Assembly: GCA_043819555.1 (NCBI GenBank)
Contig: JBDREQ010000048.1
Span: 1 to 27,870, forward strand
Length of the DNA stretch: 27,870 nucleotides
Origin: Candidatus Zixiibacteriota bacterium
Lineage (GTDB): Bacteria > Zixibacteria > MSB-5A5 > GN15 > JAAZOE01
Reading direction: 5' to 3'
Part shown: positions 1 to 9,000 of the stretch, one piece after another
How positions within the stretch are numbered: position 1 is the stretch's first letter
Layout: the number at the start of each line of letters is the position of its first letter
Program-made: the position numbers

Positions 1-3000
1 AGAGTTGATGCGATTTGCCTGATCGAGCAGCCCGAGGCTGATAATCTGGAAATCTCACACCGCTCTTCAAGGTTAAATTGTTTGTATCTATGTCCCATAA
101 CACCTCTACGAGGTGTTGCACTTCGTTTGTGAACTTAGGGCATAACACAGGCAAAGGCAGGATTTTGGTGGCGCTTATTTAATAAGAACCGATTTGATAA
201 CCGATACTTCCGCGCCGGATTGAGCCCTGATAAAATATATTCCGCTTGGGAAACTGCCCGCGTTCCATTCAAATTCAATCTCAGTATCGTGCATTATGCC
301 ATCATATAAGAGATCAACTTTTTCGCCCAGGAGATTATAAATAGATACATTTAGATGGGCACCGGTTTTATCTATCCTGACGGGAATAGTCTGGCTGGCA
401 TTAAACGGATTGGGCATTGCCGGGCCTAAAGACAGGGATACCGGTAAGACCGGATTGTCATTTTCAGTCGACGTGGGGCTCATTAAGGCATAGAGGTCAA
501 TCGTATTGCCATTTACAGCAACAAGGAAGGGGGTAGAGCTATCGTCCGGATATTCCCAGTTTAAGTTCCCCGATGGTATCGTTGGTAGTACTTCTATTTC
601 GTTATTGGTTGATGCCTCAAACTGCCTGAAATTACCATCGGCAAGAGCAAAATACGTATTCGGGTAATCTGGGTGGAAGGCATAATGCGAATAGACTGCC
701 GGCTCCAGGGTATCAGCCTCGATGTAATCGCCTGTAATCCAGCCGTAGTAATTTTCATTTCCGGAAATTGGAGTATATGTTTGATATGGTCCCATACAAG
801 TTGTCCACCATTGATAGTTTAAGAGCATTTCGTATTGACAAGATGAAGGATTAATGTTAGCGCATAATAATAGGTCATATTTATTTGTAAATGAACGGCT
901 CTCGGAGAATGCGCAACTGGAATATTTAGTACTATGGAGATGATAAAATTCGCTGTCAGCATAATTATAAAAAATAATACTATTTATTAACCACGATTGT
1001 GATCCGTCAGGAGAAGGACCTATGTCATAAGAATAGCCCGACTGATGCTTGGTCCCGATTATTGCGGGTGTACATCCGTTGCGTATAGTTATGGGAGAGG
1101 AGAAGAATTGTTGCTCCGAATAGGCCATAGTGTCATTTGGGAATTCATTATAGATAACGATATGTCCAAAAAATTCACTATTGGCATCCCACCCTCCATA
1201 GCTATATCCAAGTGCTCCTTTATATGAGAAAACCAAGTTGTCAGAACTATCATTATTTAAATCTGATACAGCCAATGCTTCAATTGTAAATTGTTTAATA
1301 TGATCACCGCCATATTGGCCGGGGCGTTCAAAATCATAATTGTTGTAATAAACGACTTCGGTCGGAGATTCATATCCTGTATTATATAATTCAATCACAG
1401 CCGCCGAATCGGATTTTCCCGAGACATCAAAACTCATAGCGACTATCATATCCAAGACATCGTCTTTGTTAATATCTCCCAAGGCAATTTTGTATTCTCG
1501 GGCATCGCGAAGAGTAACTTCATATAAGATTGAGTCTGTGGATTTTGAATAAAGTAAGAGCCGTTGTCCCGAACGGACCAAAATATATGATTCACCTGAA
1601 ACTTTTTCGTTGCCAAAAGTATATTCGGATATTTTGGTAATTCCCGGGATTTCACATGATTGGATTTGATAAAGATCCAGAGAAGAAGCTAATACGCCAG
1701 CACCAATAAAATTAATTGCTATCAGAGTGAAAAGTATTTTCTTAAGAATCATAAGCCTTGCCCTCGTCATAATAATATAAGCTATATATCAATTTAATGT
1801 ATTAAAGTGTTTAGTCAATAGTTTTTTTCTGGATTCCCGACTCGTTCCGTCGTAACGGAACTCTCGGGAATGACAGGGGTGGGTCTGTTTTAACTGTCAC
1901 GTGGTGTGTCAAGTGTACAAAAAAATAACGACAACTCGAGAGTTGTCGCTACGTGGGCGCAGGCCTGGTTGGGTAAAAGTAATATTTTTGGCAGGAGCCC
2001 TTCGGGCTCCTTCCCTACAGAAAAATGCCGGGTTTCTCGCTTGCGCTCGGAACACCGATCTACAATAGATTGCCGCGTCGCTTCGCTCCTCGCAATGACG
2101 AGAGAACACACCCCGACCTTCGGGCACCCCATATTAGTTCAGGAAATATCGCCCACAAAACAATTTAGTCTTGGTGTCATTCCAGCAAGTTCCGCGGCAG
2201 CGAAACGCAAGCTGGAATCCATGCGGAGTTTGCATCATGATAAAATATTTGGAGTTCCTTCACGCGCTGGTATGACAGGGGAAAGATTTTATGCAATAAT
2301 AAAAAGCCCGCATGAAGCAAGGCTTTTTGAGTTTTGGCAGGAGCCGAAGGGATTTTGCCCTACCGTTTGGGGCCAATATGTTGTGTTTGTTGTAAATATT
2401 GACGCTATATATAGTTATCAGAAATAAATAATTGAAAAAATAAAAAAAATAAGGAAAACCAACAAAAAATAACTTGACTACTGCACAAATGTGCAGTATA
2501 TTTGATTTACGCCGATAATATCAACGAACAGGAGATGAAATGCTTTATAAAATGAAAAATAAGGGAAACGTATCTTCGGTGGTAAAACCAAAATGGCAGA
2601 TGTCATTTTCTTCAAGAGTCATTTTACAGGAGATGTAATGCTTTATAAAATGAAAAATATGGAAGACATGTCTTCGGAGGTAAAGCTGAAATCACGAGCT
2701 TTATTTATTGCATCAATGGCCGGGACGGCGCGGGGCAGTATGTTTGTCGGCGTATCCAGAGTTAATTCGGACAATAAAGCGAGTAATGCCAACAGTTGTC
2801 CCGATTGCGGCGGATATCTGGCTCGAATCGGGTACTGCTTTTCGTGTGTTGCCTGCGGGTGGGGAGAATGTTCCTGAATATGGAAAGGGGCAGACGGGGA
2901 CGTCTGCCGCCCACAAAAAACATAAGGGGAAATGATTATGCGTAAACGATTATTACCATACAGTATTCCGGAGCCGGTATTGAATCAGTGGGAGAAACGG

Positions 3001-6000: not shown

Positions 6001-9000
6001 AAATTCCGAGCCATTCCTGACGGCTTTAGTCGCCGAACTGGCCGAAGGTCCGGATGATAGTCCCGATCTCGAAAAAGACACCTCAGAAATTATCGAGCTA
6101 ATATCGAAATTAACCCGTTTGGATACCCGCTACGCCGGAGAATTGATATATACCCTGGGAATGAGCCGGTCGTCTCCATCTCATTTCACCGACCGGGTGG
6201 CGGCAATGATTCATTTTCAACTTCATGATAAGCAGGAAATTCTTGAATCGATTACGATTCCCGAAAGGTGTCAGACCATTCTCAGGAAACTTAAAACCGA
6301 AATTGAAAACACATCAACCCTGGCTCGGATTAATGATCGCGTTACCGAATCTCTGGAGCGAAAGAAAAAGGAAAGTTTTTTGCGCCAGCAGTTAATGGAA
6401 ATTCGCCGCGAATTGGGAGATGATTTTATAGAGGAAGATATAGCGAAACATTATCATAAGAAGATTAAGGAAAACAGATCGTTCCCCAAAGAAGTTTCCG
6501 AGTACCTTTTATCCGAAGCTGACCGCCTAAAACATCTATCATCTTCATCGGCTGAATATGGGTCAAGTAAATACTATCTTGATCTGGTTCTGTCTTTGCC
6601 CTGGGAACCTGAAAAAAAAGAAATCATTGACTTAAAAAAAGTCGAGGAATCGCTCAATACGGGTTATTACGGATTGAGTAAAATCAAAGAGCAGATTCTG
6701 GAATATTTGGCATTGCGTACGATGAGTAAGGATCATAAAGATTTGCCGATCCTTTGCCTGATCGGTGCCATCGGGACAGGAAAAGCGTCACTGGCCAAAG
6801 CAATGGCCGCGTCGCTTGGCCGAAAATTCGTGCGCATCAACGGAACCAGTTTAATTGAAGTAGAAGATATCAAGGGTACATATCGAACAGATATCGGTGC
6901 CGGTCCGGGGCATTTGATTAGAATTCTCCAGAGCGAAAAATCATCCAATCTCGTTATTTTCATTGAGGACCTTGAGTATGTTGTCGAATCGGAAGATACC
7001 AATGCCCTTTTGTCATTACTCGAAGCGATAGATCCAAGACAGAATAGAAAATTCGTGGATACATTTATTGGAATTCCCATTGATTTATCGCGGGTTCTTT
7101 TCGTCCTCAGCATTACCGGTCTCGAAGAATTTCCGGAACCTTTTACGCATCGTTTAGAAATCGTTGAGATGCCGGGTTATATCGAAAAAGAAAAAATCAT
7201 TATCGCCAAGAAACATATTCTCCCCAAGTTATACAAAAAGCATGGACTGGCGCGAACGGAATTTAAATTCAACGATAAGATTTTGATTCGAATTATCCGC
7301 CAATATACAATGGAAGCGGGACTGATTGGCCTGCAGCAACAGCTAAAAAAAATATTCCGCCGCATAGCTCGAAAAAAGGCCATGGGCGATCCATGCAAAA
7401 TTACTCTGACAGAAAATACAATTGATGAATTTCTTGGTACACCCCAGTTTATTCCGGAAAAGGCAATGACCGAACCCGAAATTGGCGTCGCTAACGGATT
7501 GGCCTGGACGGGGGCCGGCGGAGATTTAATGCTTATTGAAGGTCTCAAAATGAAAGGCACCGGAACGGTTGCCACGACCGGTCTTTTGGGCGAGATAATG
7601 AAGGAATCAATTCAGGCGGCCCATAGCTTTATCCGTTCTCGCGCGGATATCCTCGGTATCGATCATGATGATTTCGCCAATTTTGATATTCACATTCATT
7701 TTCCCATGGGCGCGATTCCCAAAGACGGACCGTCCGCCGGAACCACTGTCGCCGTTGTCCTGGCTTCGGTTATGGCCGAACGCCCGGTTCGCAGTGATAT
7801 AGCGATGACCGGTGAAGTTACTTTGAGAGGCAAGATTATTCCGGTGGGAGGAGTAAAGGAAAAAGTTTCCGCTGCCAACCGCGCCGGCATATTTACTATC
7901 ATTCTGCCAAAAGAAAATAAGAAAGATATAAAAGAATTGCCACGCGAGATTATACGAAAGACAAAGTTTATTTTTATCGATACCGTTGATGAATTATTGG
8001 AGCATGCTTTACTTGACTTTCAGCCATCAACTTACACCCTGGAAAAACTCTTTGCCGAAGAAATCGAAAAAGCGAAAAAGCGCAAGAGGTCCCGCTCCAA
8101 ATCGACCGCAGAGAAAAAAACTACAAAGGCGAATGGCGCCAAAACGAAGAAAAGAGCGCCTAAGAAAATCAAATAAACTTTATCGAAAATGAGATTGACA
8201 CAATTTTACTTTATTATTACATTAGTCGCTCTTGCGGTTGATTAAAAGATACTTCGGAGGTAAGAATGAAACTAATTGTTAATATCAAAGCGCTGGCTAT
8301 TTGCTTATTTGTGCTGGTCTCACTCTGTGGGGCAAATGATGAGAATAGCCCCGACTCTTTAATCATTGAAAAGTTCTCTTTTGACGAAAACGGAAAAGCG
8401 GTTGCGGATTTTGTAATTGTTAATGATCAGGATTTGGCGGCTGTTACGATTCCCTTAATCCTGCGCGGAACGGGTGTCACTATTGATTCGATTTCATTCG
8501 CTGGAGGCAGGTTTGAGTATTTAAAAATGCTGCCGGTGACAATTGCCGAAAATAAGACTTCTGTGGTATTTGGAGCAATTGTAGTAACCGAGGAATATGT
8601 GGTTCCCGGGCGCGGTTTGTTTGCCAAAATGTATCTGTCGAGCGATACTGCCCAAAAGGATATTTCCTGCGTGATTGATACAACGACGGTGGAACCGGCA
8701 TTTCTAATGTTCACCAAAACCAGTTCAGCCTCATTTACTCCGGCCTTTATTCCGGGCACGATCGCAGTCGAAGAGCCCAAAAAGGAATAATACGATTATT
8801 TATATTCTGAAGATTTTTATAGCCCGGCCTTTTCGGCCGGGTTTTTTTATCCGTTTACAAATTGTTAGTTAGTAAATCAAAATATCCACTTATAATGCTG
8901 CCCCTATTTTGTTTATTCTTGACATAATTACGCGGATGTATATCTTGATATTATAAGAAAGTACGGGCGGGTACTTCATATAATTCAATTAACGAGTCAC

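What a model noticed while it worked through the whole genome (the two positions that open the first line are those of the whole stretch)
2480..8176. Bacterial Hel308/HELQ-type helicase under a LexA box, a core SOS gene of Zixibacteria
g01676 (860 aa, C48:2980-5562) is a full-length Hel308/Hjm/HELQ-family helicase with an extra, highly conserved C-terminal domain of about 120 residues, in a family described as absent from bacteria. It is a near-universal gene of the phylum. It lies in an operon (small Zn-ribbon gene, helicase, Lon paralogue) whose promoter holds a perfect LexA operator between -35 and -10, so it is probably a core SOS repair enzyme.
Evidence so far: Swiss-Prot top five hits are all archaeal Hel308. 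A profile of 41 homologues against the PDB ranks four archaeal Hel308/Hjm first (E 1.6e-93 to 1.3e-88 over about 715 positions); HamB scores 5e-30 over 160 positions and Lhr 3e-12. The AlphaFold model (pLDDT 84.6, call 50) gives Hel308/Hjm as Foldseek ranks 1-9, TM-target 0.79-0.84, then Pol theta helicase. A match at E<=1e-40 stands in 60 of 61 phylum genomes. A matrix built only from lexA promoters of 22 relatives finds a site over 15 bits within 1 kb upstream of the helicase in 28 of 28 loci with enough flank (2 of 30 too short) and in 0 of 28 coding controls; nearly all follow TTGAC. The Lon paralogue follows in 23 of 30 loci; a CxxC..Cxx [...]
(Added by a program. Inside this text positions count along the whole contig: contig position 1 is position 1 of the stretch shown here. 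"Call 12" and the like, gene names such as g00115 and contig names such as C1 are that model's own, and its searches are not shown. The text may have been shortened before it was handed on; [...] marks where a part breaks off. The agent that wrote the report below was given it as the finding of a first reader that could run no searches.)

Follow-up and report, generated by a model that had tools for sequence, protein, structure and literature searches.

The report
SOS-controlled bacterial Hel308-like helicase family
This gene encodes a bacterial relative of the archaeal and animal DNA-repair helicase Hel308/HELQ, with an extra DNA-binding tail; it is found in nearly all genomes of two uncultured phyla, behind the binding site of the DNA-damage repressor LexA, although Hel308 has been described as absent from bacteria.

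Summary
Confirmed and wider than reported. ORF 2932/2938-5562 has the five-domain Hel308 fold (Foldseek ranks 1-9) plus a C-terminal OmpR/PhoB-type winged helix (Z 9.9). CTGCACAAATGTGCAG lies between -35 and -10. It is the genome's best site for a matrix built from other genomes' lexA promoters; lexA-dinB and dinB-dnaE2 carry it too. The gene is in 270 of 285 phylum genomes, but also in 93 of 101 Hydrogenedentota (box in 30 of 30 loci), 10 of 101 Armatimonadota (Bacillus-type box) and in lexA- or recA-linked cassettes, so the operator follows each host's LexA. Trees give a separate bacterial clade (SH-aLRT 99) with its own motifs (DExQ, SAV, FHNADL, NxxGRAGR). Nesting in Asgard/TACK or Halobacteriota Hel308 is rejected; the root is unresolved. 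So it probably works like Hel308 (SOS-induced 3'-5' translocase/annealase, inferred), but orthology is not shown. Caspase-fused plasmid relatives exist. The Lon paralogue has its own promoter, no box and degenerate Walker motifs, and is probably not SOS-controlled. No activity or expression data. This scan noted the family at least six times before on other DNA.

The parts
2474..2502 (+). sigma-70-type promoter TTGACT-17-TATATT
   Evidence: the same TTGAC-NN-operator-TA layout recurs in Zixibacteria and Hydrogenedentota loci
2481..2496 (.). LexA operator CTGCAC-AAAT-GTGCAG, filling the -35/-10 spacer (palindrome 2479-2498)
   Evidence: best genome-wide site; same site before lexA-dinB, dinB-dnaE2 and imuA-imuB
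2593..2877 (+). small Zn-ribbon gene (CxxC...CxxC-GWGEC; 94 aa, or 79 aa from ATG 2638 behind AGGAG 2628-2632)
   Evidence: weak match to the C-terminal ribbon of B12-dependent ribonucleotide reductase, E 3e-5; found in 18 of 25 Zixibacteria loci with full flank and 0 of 29 Hydrogenedentota loci
2932..5562 (+). Hel308-like SF2 helicase, 874-876 aa (likely start ATG 2938)
2932..4251 (+). RecA1-RecA2 motor (about aa 1-440): motif I PTSAGKT, II DELQ, III LSAV, IVa FHNADL, VI SMSGRAGR
   Evidence: boundaries from the model
4252..5079 (+). winged helix (domain 3), ratchet (domain 4) and HhH-like domain 5 (about aa 441-716); invariant Arg685
   Evidence: Pfam HTH_61 (E 0.21) and Helicase_dom4_arc (E 2.5e-5), both below cut-off; Foldseek target-TM 0.82-0.89 over 706-751 columns
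5122..5136 (+). internal in-frame ribosome-binding site AAGGAG and ATG 5134 (Met735); would give a free 142-aa C-terminal domain
   Evidence: 26 of 31 Zixibacteria loci against 4 of 278 control windows; 0 of 32 Hydrogenedentota and 0 of 12 other loci
5167..5559 (+). C-terminal OmpR/PhoB-type winged-helix domain (aa 746-876)
   Evidence: model pLDDT 89.8; VIA-align Z 9.9 to BaeR, first 31 rows all OmpR/ToxR/SARP type; Pfam Trans_reg_C above cut-off in non-Zixibacteria members
5591..5619 (+). second sigma-70-type promoter TTGACA-17-TAAACT, in front of lon; no LexA box
5660..8176 (+). Lon paralogue with intact Ser-Lys protease motifs but degenerate Walker A (GTGKAS) and Walker B (IEDLE); conserved neighbour, probably outside the SOS unit

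Best explanation
An SOS-inducible DNA-repair helicase of a distinct bacterial family within the Hel308/POLQ/Brr2 (COG1204-type) branch of Ski2-like helicases. Shown by sequence: LexA-type operator in the promoter spacer, intact ATP-binding motifs, the whole five-domain Hel308 core, and an added OmpR-type winged helix. Inferred from established SOS biology: LexA blocks the promoter until RecA-ssDNA triggers its cleavage; the Zn-ribbon gene and the helicase are then made together with DinB, DinB-DnaE2 and ImuA-ImuB. Inferred from archaeal Hel308 and HELQ: the enzyme loads on a 3' single-stranded tail at a stalled fork, gap or D-loop, moves 3' to 5', unwinds short duplexes, strips ssDNA-binding proteins and anneals strands, so limiting recombination and handing templates to restart or translesion synthesis. 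Least certain: the winged helix binds duplex DNA beside the junction or docks a partner; in part of the Zixibacteria it is probably also made as a free 142-aa protein from an internal start.
For: Fold: Foldseek ranks 1-9 are Hel308/Hjm, then Pol theta; a 79-row profile ranks four archaeal Hel308 first, E 1e-135 to 2e-132 over about 730 positions, with HamB at 8e-44 over 174 positions. Regulation: site is first in the genome, with lexA-dinB second and dinB-dnaE2 fourth; of 21 perfect-box loci from 41 genomes, 13 precede the helicase operon, 1 lexA, 4 imuA-like genes, 1 is at a contig edge and 2 are unexplained; LexA is intact (TIGR00498 195 bits, cut-off 111). The operator changes with the host: CTGAA-N6-TTCAG type in Hydrogenedentota, 30 of 30 loci against 8 of 240 controls and matching their lexA promoters; GAAC-N4-GTTY type in Armatimonadota (5 of 8 winged-helix-type loci by pattern) and Sumerlaeota, as at their lexA. 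Elsewhere the gene lies directly behind recA (L240, L241) or lexA (L043, L324, L325). G026 has neither a lexA match nor a box. Core, single-copy spread in two phyla. The window is not a defence island.
Against: No activity, binding or expression data. Motifs II, III, IVa and VI differ together from all Hel308/POLQ rows (DExQ, SAV, FH[NH]ADL, NxxGRAGR against DExH, SAT, FHHAGL, QxxGRAGR), so catalytic tuning may differ; the second arginine of the domain-5 GRxRA motif is lost. Identity to 27 archaeal rows is 23-33%, and NCBIfam Hel308 models score 206-315 bits against cut-offs of 887-1216. recA has no box here, so this regulon is atypical. The box is weak or missing at 2 of 10 distant-family helicase promoters. 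An OmpR-type domain normally acts in transcription, and sister forms carry caspase or nuclease-like domains in defence-like settings.
Confidence: 0.7

Rival explanations
1. Dedicated partner of the error-prone polymerases: a two-gene version of Pol theta. The helicase strips SSB or RecA and anneals microhomologies, and the co-induced DinB/ImuB/DnaE2 extend them (mutagenic gap filling or end joining).
For: In this genome the only other strong intergenic boxes with a repair gene behind them are lexA-dinB and dinB-dnaE2, and recA has none; perfect boxes in relatives precede imuA-imuB. Pol theta is the next structural hit, and a clade of the bacterial family with POLQ is not rejected (AU p 0.47 and 0.50).
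Against: The helicase is never adjacent to the polymerases in the loci read. The POLQ grouping has SH-aLRT 51 only. Shared regulation is expected of any SOS gene.
Confidence: 0.12
2. Transcription-linked enzyme: the OmpR-type winged helix binds promoter DNA or RNA polymerase, and the motor clears stalled RNA polymerase or R-loops after damage; the free domain acts as a transcription regulator.
For: The tail has the fold of response-regulator output domains; it is as conserved as RecA2 (mean column conservation 0.61 against 0.59); look-alike free 131-aa proteins occur in mostly viral clusters (feature score 0.93, TM 0.91) and fused to receiver domains; internal start in 26 of 31 loci. ASH-Ski2, which acts on DNA and RNA (PMC10946056, passages), also often has DExQ (4 of 6 rows).
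Against: The tail is swapped for nuclease-like, histidine-kinase or sigma-54 domains, or lost, in close relatives, which fits an accessory module. The internal start is absent outside Zixibacteria. The genome has Mfd already (by length and motif). Domain 5, which ASH-Ski2 lacks, is kept.
Confidence: 0.1
3. Anti-phage or mobile-element sensor helicase like HamB, induced by damage to guard against or to serve prophages.
For: The nearest sister clade is caspase-fused and lies on plasmids beside restriction, ABC-three-component, TIR and AbiEii genes; lexA-helicase cassettes occur in integrative and viral contigs; Hachiman is activated by DNA damage (PMC12278908, passages).
Against: Single-copy and near-universal in two phyla; no effector nuclease beside it in the window or in the Hydrogenedentota loci read; PADLOC matches are partial (best 108 bits) and weaker than those of a genuine archaeal Hel308 (170 bits).
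Confidence: 0.05
4. The palindrome is not a LexA site but the site of another repressor, or of the helicase's own winged helix.
For: Binding was not tested; recA lacks the box; OmpR-type domains bind DNA.
Against: The site precedes lexA itself in this genome and in 9 of 10 further lexA copies (>=10 bits; the tenth is a second paralogue), precedes Y-family polymerase operons, and switches to each phylum's own lexA-promoter motif, including the known Bacillus-type CGAAC-N4-GTTCG (PMC3091678, passages).
Confidence: 0.03

Closest known systems
Archaeal Hel308/Hjm (PDB 2p6r, 2va8, 2zj2, 9b15)
   Same: All five domains in order (target-TM 0.82-0.89); best sequence and profile hits; motif IVa aromatic and histidine kept; first arginine of the domain-5 motif kept.
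   Different: 23-33% identity; separate clade in trees; DExQ, SAV, FH[NH]ADL and NxxGRAGR instead of DExH, SAT, FHHAGL and QxxGRAGR; extra OmpR-type tail; under LexA control, a bacterial system.
Pol theta helicase domain and HELQ
   Same: Same five-domain core (Foldseek ranks 10 and on, query-TM 0.66-0.68); a clade with POLQ is not rejected.
   Different: No polymerase domain, no N-HELQ; 23-25% identity; POLQ keeps DELH, SAT and QxxGRAGR. No HELQ sequence was available for the tree.
Hachiman HamB and AbpB
   Same: Bacterial Ski2-like DNA helicases that respond to DNA damage (PMC12278908, passages).
   Different: Matches cover only the RecA domains; no N-terminal helical bundle, no HamA neighbour; core gene rather than patchy defence locus.
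ASH-Ski2 (archaeal) and bacterial HelY-type Ski2 helicases
   Same: Ski2-like core; some ASH-Ski2 have DExQ.
   Different: Separate clades at 100% support; they lack Hel308 domains 4-5 in the alignment. The labels ASH-Ski2 and HelY for these rows are mine, from length, motifs and taxonomy.
OmpR/PhoB output domains (BaeR, VanR, PhoP; ToxR/CadC; SARP)
   Same: Four-stranded sheet, helix-turn-helix and wing (Z 8-9.9, rmsd 2.1-3.2 A over 81-91 residues).
   Different: No receiver domain; about 20 extra C-terminal residues with two short helices; 13-26% identity; fused to a helicase.
SOS helicases and cassettes of bacteria (UvrD, RecQ, MrfA; imuA-imuB-dnaE2)
   Same: LexA-type control; travels in lexA-linked cassettes.
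   Different: Different helicase family. RecQ-family genes are found in only 22 of 151 Zixibacteria but in 67 of 101 Hydrogenedentota, so it is not simply a RecQ replacement.

Membership tests
Hel308/HELQ | Five-domain core: RecA1, RecA2, winged helix, ratchet, HhH domain 5 (PMC13623763) | tested here: met
Hel308/HELQ | Motif IVa F/Y-H-H-A-G-L (PMC10484726) | tested here: not met
   FHNADL in 98 of 120 close homologues, FHHAGL in none of the listed variants; the aromatic residue, first His and Leu are kept
Hel308/HELQ | Motif II DExH with motif III SAT and motif VI QxxGRAGR | tested here: not met
   DExQ in 119 of 120 and N/S-x-x-GRAGR in the close homologues; 25 of 27 archaeal and 4 of 4 POLQ rows have DExH, and all have SAT
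Hel308/HELQ | Score above a curated Hel308 model cut-off | tested here: inconclusive
   206-315 bits against 887-1216; but a genuine Asgard Hel308 also stays below all four cut-offs (536-847 bits)
Hel308/HELQ | Branches inside the archaeal Hel308/POLQ group | tested here: inconclusive
   Own clade at SH-aLRT 99; AU rejects union with Asgard, Asgard+TACK and Halobacteriota rows (p 0.0002-0.035), does not reject union with DPANN (0.05-0.07), Methanobacteria (0.33-0.38) or POLQ (0.47-0.50), nor a place outside archaea+POLQ (0.31-0.46)
Hel308/HELQ | ssDNA-dependent ATPase, 3'-5' translocation, annealing | not testable with these tools
   needs purified protein
Ski2-like SF2 helicases (COG1204-type) | RecA1-RecA2 core followed by winged helix and ratchet; groups with Hel308, Brr2, POLQ and ASH-Ski2 apart from HelY/Ski2 | tested here: met
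LexA (SOS) regulon | Operator overlaps the promoter and matches the site before lexA | tested here: met
LexA (SOS) regulon | Same site before canonical SOS genes | tested here: met
   dinB, dinB-dnaE2, imuA-imuB; not recA in this genome
LexA (SOS) regulon | LexA binding and induction by DNA damage | not testable with these tools
   needs EMSA or reporter
OmpR/PhoB winged-helix domain | Fold and Trans_reg_C profile | tested here: met
   fold; profile above cut-off in 8 non-Zixibacteria members, but no Pfam hit for the window's own tail
Hachiman (HamAB) | Adjacent HamA nuclease and N-terminal helical bundle | tested here: not met
   motor starts at residue 1; neighbours are a Zn-ribbon gene and lon
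ATP-dependent Lon protease (neighbour) | Walker A GKT/S and Walker B hhhhDE | tested here: not met
   GKA[SA] and [IVL]ED[ILV][DE] in 30 of 30 orthologues; the genome's two other Lons have GKTS and LDE[IV]D

The most novel reading that the evidence does not exclude
A third, ancient branch of the Hel308/HELQ/POLQ radiation, kept as a core SOS gene in several uncultured phyla and the closest prokaryotic kin of the Pol theta helicase. With the co-induced DinB/DnaE2 polymerases it would form a split, bacterial theta-like annealing and gap-filling pathway, steered by an OmpR-type domain that part of the phylum also makes as a free regulator from an internal start.
Probability: 0.12. Interest if true: 0.9.

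Novelty: new variant of a known kind. Interest (0 to 1): 0.7.

Why it matters
[quoted passage not shown] Here a full five-domain relative is a core, single-copy gene of two bacterial phyla, and its promoter often carries the strongest LexA site in the genome. The operator has been rewritten to each host's LexA dialect, which points to long selection for damage-induced expression. It gives a bacterial, genetically simple setting for an open question of the field (what Hel308/HELQ annealing does for recombination control), adds a natural motif-II/III/IVa/VI variant at the switch studied in archaeal Hel308, supplies LexA boxes for Zixibacteria and Hydrogenedentota, and bears on where HELQ and Pol theta came from. 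It is a new family of a known kind of enzyme, not a new kind of system.

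Tried and rejected
RecQ replacement: RecQ-family matches in 22 of 151 Zixibacteria (none in this genome) but 67 of 101 Hydrogenedentota, so not a general explanation. A third phylum, Nitrospirota: the locus labelled Nitrospirales (L047) lies in the same GTDB phylum as the Hydrogenedentota genomes; one search returned the same set as and is not independent. 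One real Nitrospirota record exists (Ca. Manganitrophus). Lon as part of the SOS operon: own promoter here (strict pattern in 8 of 30 loci), LexA box in 0 of 30; read-through from the upstream promoter is not excluded, as no terminator was found between the genes. Zixibacteria-specific family: rejected. Core gene of Myxococcota or Armatimonadota: 1 of 121 and 10 of 101. The bootstrap ('careful') tree did not finish in three runs, so supports are SH-aLRT only. No RNA run was listed for the region; this is no evidence either way. Rfam: nothing in 1-12000. PHROGs: no match of the tail at E<0.02; a viral-contig scan with the tail alignment confirmed nothing. Foldseek of the tail alone gave no match at E<=0.001 (best 0.006). 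No complex prediction was obtained, so dimerisation of the tail is untested. The Fibrobacter succinogenes LexA box (recalled as TGCNC-N4-GTGCA, which would match this site) could not be verified: searches showed only that this LexA was characterised. Ten literature searches listed no paper describing this family; the library lacks most subscription papers and no supplements were read, so a mention in a table or in an unheld SF2 survey cannot be excluded.

Full report
1. Observation. The window holds, on the + strand, a small cysteine-rich ORF (2593-2877), a helicase ORF (2932-5562, 876 aa) and a Lon paralogue (5660-8176). Upstream lies TTGACT-17-TATATT (2474-2502) whose spacer is filled by CTGCACAAATGTGCAG, part of a 20-nt palindrome. 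The likely helicase start is ATG 2938, not 2980: Met3 and Leu7 are at least 90% conserved in 79 homologues, and the database call is 874 aa.

2. The protein. Pfam gives DEAD and Helicase_C above cut-off, and the archaeal ratchet and POLQ-type winged-helix models below it. The four best NCBIfam models are all Hel308, at 206-315 bits against cut-offs of 887-1216. By sequence the four best PDB entries are archaeal Hel308/Hjm; a 79-row profile matches them at E 1e-135 to 2e-132 over about 730 positions, Pol theta at 1e-102 over 733, and HamB at 8e-44 over 174. My AlphaFold model (pLDDT 93.4) gives Hel308/Hjm at Foldseek ranks 1-9 (target-TM 0.82-0.89), then Pol theta. All five domains named in PMC13623763 (passages and section 4 read) are present.

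3. The tail. Folded alone (pLDDT 89.8), residues 746-866 match OmpR/PhoB output domains: Z 9.9, rmsd 2.7 A over 90 residues to BaeR; 12 rows reach Z 8; the first 31 rows are OmpR, ToxR/CadC or SARP types, and the first other row has Z 5.5. Foldseek agrees but stays above E 0.001. The window's tail has no Pfam hit, but 8 of the 41 relatives scanned show Trans_reg_C above cut-off. The tail is as conserved as RecA2. An earlier scan note (e1-5142900) reported an internal start; I confirmed AAGGAG at 5122 and ATG at 5134, with such a start in 26 of 31 Zixibacteria loci (one probably chance) against 4 of 278 control windows, and in 0 of 32 Hydrogenedentota and 0 of 12 other loci. Free look-alike proteins of 131 aa form a mostly viral cluster in the ESM Atlas, a lead only.

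4. The operator is a LexA site. A matrix from 23 helicase promoters of other genomes ranks, in this genome, the helicase (29.2 bits), lexA-dinB (19.4), a site 300 nt before an 800-aa gene that looks secreted (16.8, unexplained) and dinB-dnaE2 (16.5) (gene names). recA has no site within 400 nt, nor before the start of its gene run. The reverse test, a matrix from 5 lexA-promoter sites of other genomes, again puts the helicase first, scores >12 bits in 25 of 25 helicase loci with flank (5 of 30 dropped: 4 short, 1 truncated) against 0 of 58 coding controls, and >=15 bits in 8 of 10 genomes from ten distant families. The two misses are G238 (9.6 bits) and G026, in which no lexA was found either. 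Nine of 10 lexA copies carry a site of 10 bits or more. An exact CTGCAC-N4-GTGCAG occurs in 21 of 41 genomes; of the 21 loci returned, 13 precede the helicase operon, 1 lexA, 2 imuA-imuB, 2 imuA-like genes, 1 is at a contig edge and 2 are unexplained. The site fits CTG-N10-CAG, as the E. coli box does (PMC8565304, passages). I recall that Fibrobacter LexA binds TGCNC-N4-GTGCA, but could not verify this.

5. Distribution. The gene is in 270 of 285 phylum genomes and 194 of 198 high-quality ones. It is not confined to them. A search of 50%-identity representatives returned 150 best hits, mostly 820-1000 aa long. Whole-genome searches at E<=1e-100 gave 93 of 101 Hydrogenedentota, nearly all single-copy, 10 of 101 Armatimonadota and 1 of 121 Myxococcota.

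6. The SOS link holds across phyla. In Hydrogenedentota TTGA-N3-CTG-N10-CAG-TA lies 48-111 nt before the start in 30 of 30 loci (the 30 best-scoring of 93), against 8 of 240 coding windows, and the two lexA promoters read carry CTGAA-N6-TTCAG. In Armatimonadota 5 of the 8 winged-helix-type loci match GAAC-N4-GTTY or its mirror, the other 3 show near-matches by eye, and the 2 N-terminally extended loci have none; the one lexA promoter read has the same type. This is the Bacillus-type box (PMC3091678, passages). Sumerlaeota shows the same pairing. Elsewhere the gene follows recA directly (2 of 3 copies examined in one Myxococcales genome), follows lexA in phage-like or integrative settings (L043, L324, L325), or lies opposite lexA (L053). 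No box was found for L040, L045, L048 or L049. Kin are not independent, so these counts are not statistical tests; the switch of motif with host is the stronger point.

7. Family position. In a 74-row tree (LG+G4, quick search) the bacterial sequences form one clade (SH-aLRT 99) outside a 19-row archaeal Hel308 clade (88); Zixibacteria form a subclade (99). With four POLQ rows and a mixture model (49 rows; 29 long, redundant or outlying rows left out) the bacterial clade stays at 99, while the base is unresolved among it, POLQ, Brr2/ASCC3, ASH-Ski2, a 14-row archaeal clade (83) and two stray archaeal rows. The bootstrap search did not finish. AU tests on 36 rows reject union with Asgard (p 0.0015 and 0.0002), Asgard+TACK (0.005, 0.02) and Halobacteriota rows (0.01, 0.035); they do not reject union with DPANN (0.07, 0.05), Methanobacteria (0.33, 0.38) or POLQ (0.47, 0.50), nor a place outside archaea+POLQ (0.46, 0.31) (the second re-scores the same trees). 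No HELQ, and no named Thermococcales, Sulfolobales or Halobacteria Hel308, was in the set, and several archaeal group labels rest on one to five rows. The clade also has a shared signature: motif II DExQ, III SAV, IVa FH[NH]ADL and VI NxxGRAGR, where archaeal Hel308, POLQ and Brr2 have DExH, SAT, HHAG and QxxGRAGR. From established SF2 knowledge these residues couple ATP hydrolysis to strand movement; motif IVa is the switch studied in PMC10484726 (abstract and passages). So 'works like Hel308' is well supported; 'is a Hel308 orthologue' is open.

8. Sister forms. The nearest branch carries an N-terminal caspase domain and sits on plasmids of Agrobacterium, Bradyrhizobium, Acaryochloris, Streptomyces and Hymenobacter, often beside defence-type genes (the caspase domain was scanned in L032, L329, P0245 and P0267, and is inferred for the others from length). 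Other members end in a nuclease-like, histidine-kinase or sigma-54 domain. PADLOC has no full-length model for any of them.

9. Neighbours. The Zn-ribbon gene is in 18 of 25 Zixibacteria loci with full flank and 0 of 29 Hydrogenedentota loci, so it is a local partner. The Lon paralogue follows the helicase within 1.5 kb in 29 of its 30 best-scoring loci, all from the same order; it has degenerate Walker A and B motifs in 30 of 30, intact protease motifs, no LexA box, and here its own promoter at 5591-5619. The genome has two canonical Lons.

10. Mechanism. Shown: operator, promoter, motifs, fold, spread. Inferred: LexA represses; damage derepresses the Zn-ribbon gene and helicase together with DinB, DnaE2 and ImuAB; the enzyme moves 3' to 5' on ssDNA at forks, gaps or D-loops, unwinds short duplexes, removes bound proteins and anneals strands, as Hel308 and HELQ do (PMC13623763). 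Speculative: the role of the tail and of its free form. Confidence 0.7. Rivals: dedicated partner of error-prone polymerases (0.12), transcription-linked enzyme (0.10), defence sensor (0.05), non-LexA operator (0.03). Simple RecQ replacement fails in Hydrogenedentota.

11. Literature and novelty. [quoted passage not shown] Ten searches listed no description of it; other papers were seen as listings only, and no supplements were read. This scan noted the family at least six times on other DNA; those notes are not counted as support. Verdict: real, a new variant of a known kind, interest 0.7.

Noticed in passing
window 5660-8176; L273-L302: A conserved third Lon with degenerate Walker A (GKAS/GKAA) and Walker B (IEDID/LEDLE) but intact Ser-Lys protease motifs: a probable ATPase-dead Lon subunit or regulator, kept across at least one order.
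   Followed up: partly
window 2528-2594 and 2626-2692: A 67-nt direct repeat (85% identical, spacing 98) that duplicates the ribosome-binding site and first codons of the Zn-ribbon gene.
   Followed up: no
window 2889-2908: A GC-rich hairpin without a T run between the Zn-ribbon gene and the helicase (seen); possible mRNA stability or processing element.
   Followed up: no
L032, L033, L034, L035, L038, L039, L329: About 1000-aa caspase-plus-Hel308-like helicase fusions on plasmids and mobile elements, near defence genes; no full-length PADLOC model. A candidate defence system.
   Followed up: partly
P0162, P0197, P0207, L052, L075, L081: Family members whose tail looks like a restriction-endonuclease-fold domain by eye, with no Pfam hit; others carry histidine-kinase (P0160) or sigma-54 activator (P0186) domains.
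   Followed up: no
G285 phylum; L064, L069, L073, L123, L159-L187: In one group of small-genome archaea (named members are Woesearchaeota) Hel308 is split into a 230-aa RecA1 gene and a 500-aa gene, often on different contigs; 42 of 43 matched genomes had only the C-terminal part as their best match.
   Followed up: no
L043, L324, L325, L328: lexA-helicase cassettes or lone copies inside integrative or phage-like elements with serine recombinase, DUF2924, AAA_24 and PD-(D/E)XK genes.
   Followed up: partly
L240, L241 (G290): One Myxococcales genome has three copies of the helicase, at least two directly behind their own recA.
   Followed up: partly
L051, L407, L408, L419; L188-L217: Operators such as CTGAAC-N4-GTTCAG fit both the Bacillus-type GAAC-N4-GTTC and the CTG-N10-CAG pattern, a natural intermediate between the two LexA dialects.
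   Followed up: no
G000:C72:24882: A 16.8-18.2-bit operator-like site about 300 nt before an 800-aa gene that looks secreted; no -35 hexamer beside it.
   Followed up: no
L047: A genome labelled Nitrospirales by its record falls in the same GTDB phylum as the Hydrogenedentota genomes.
   Followed up: yes
window 19070-23030: A metallophosphoesterase gene and a long coiled-coil AAA gene, resembling the YhaO/YhaN (SbcD/SbcC-like) pair by eye; name recalled, not tested.
   Followed up: no
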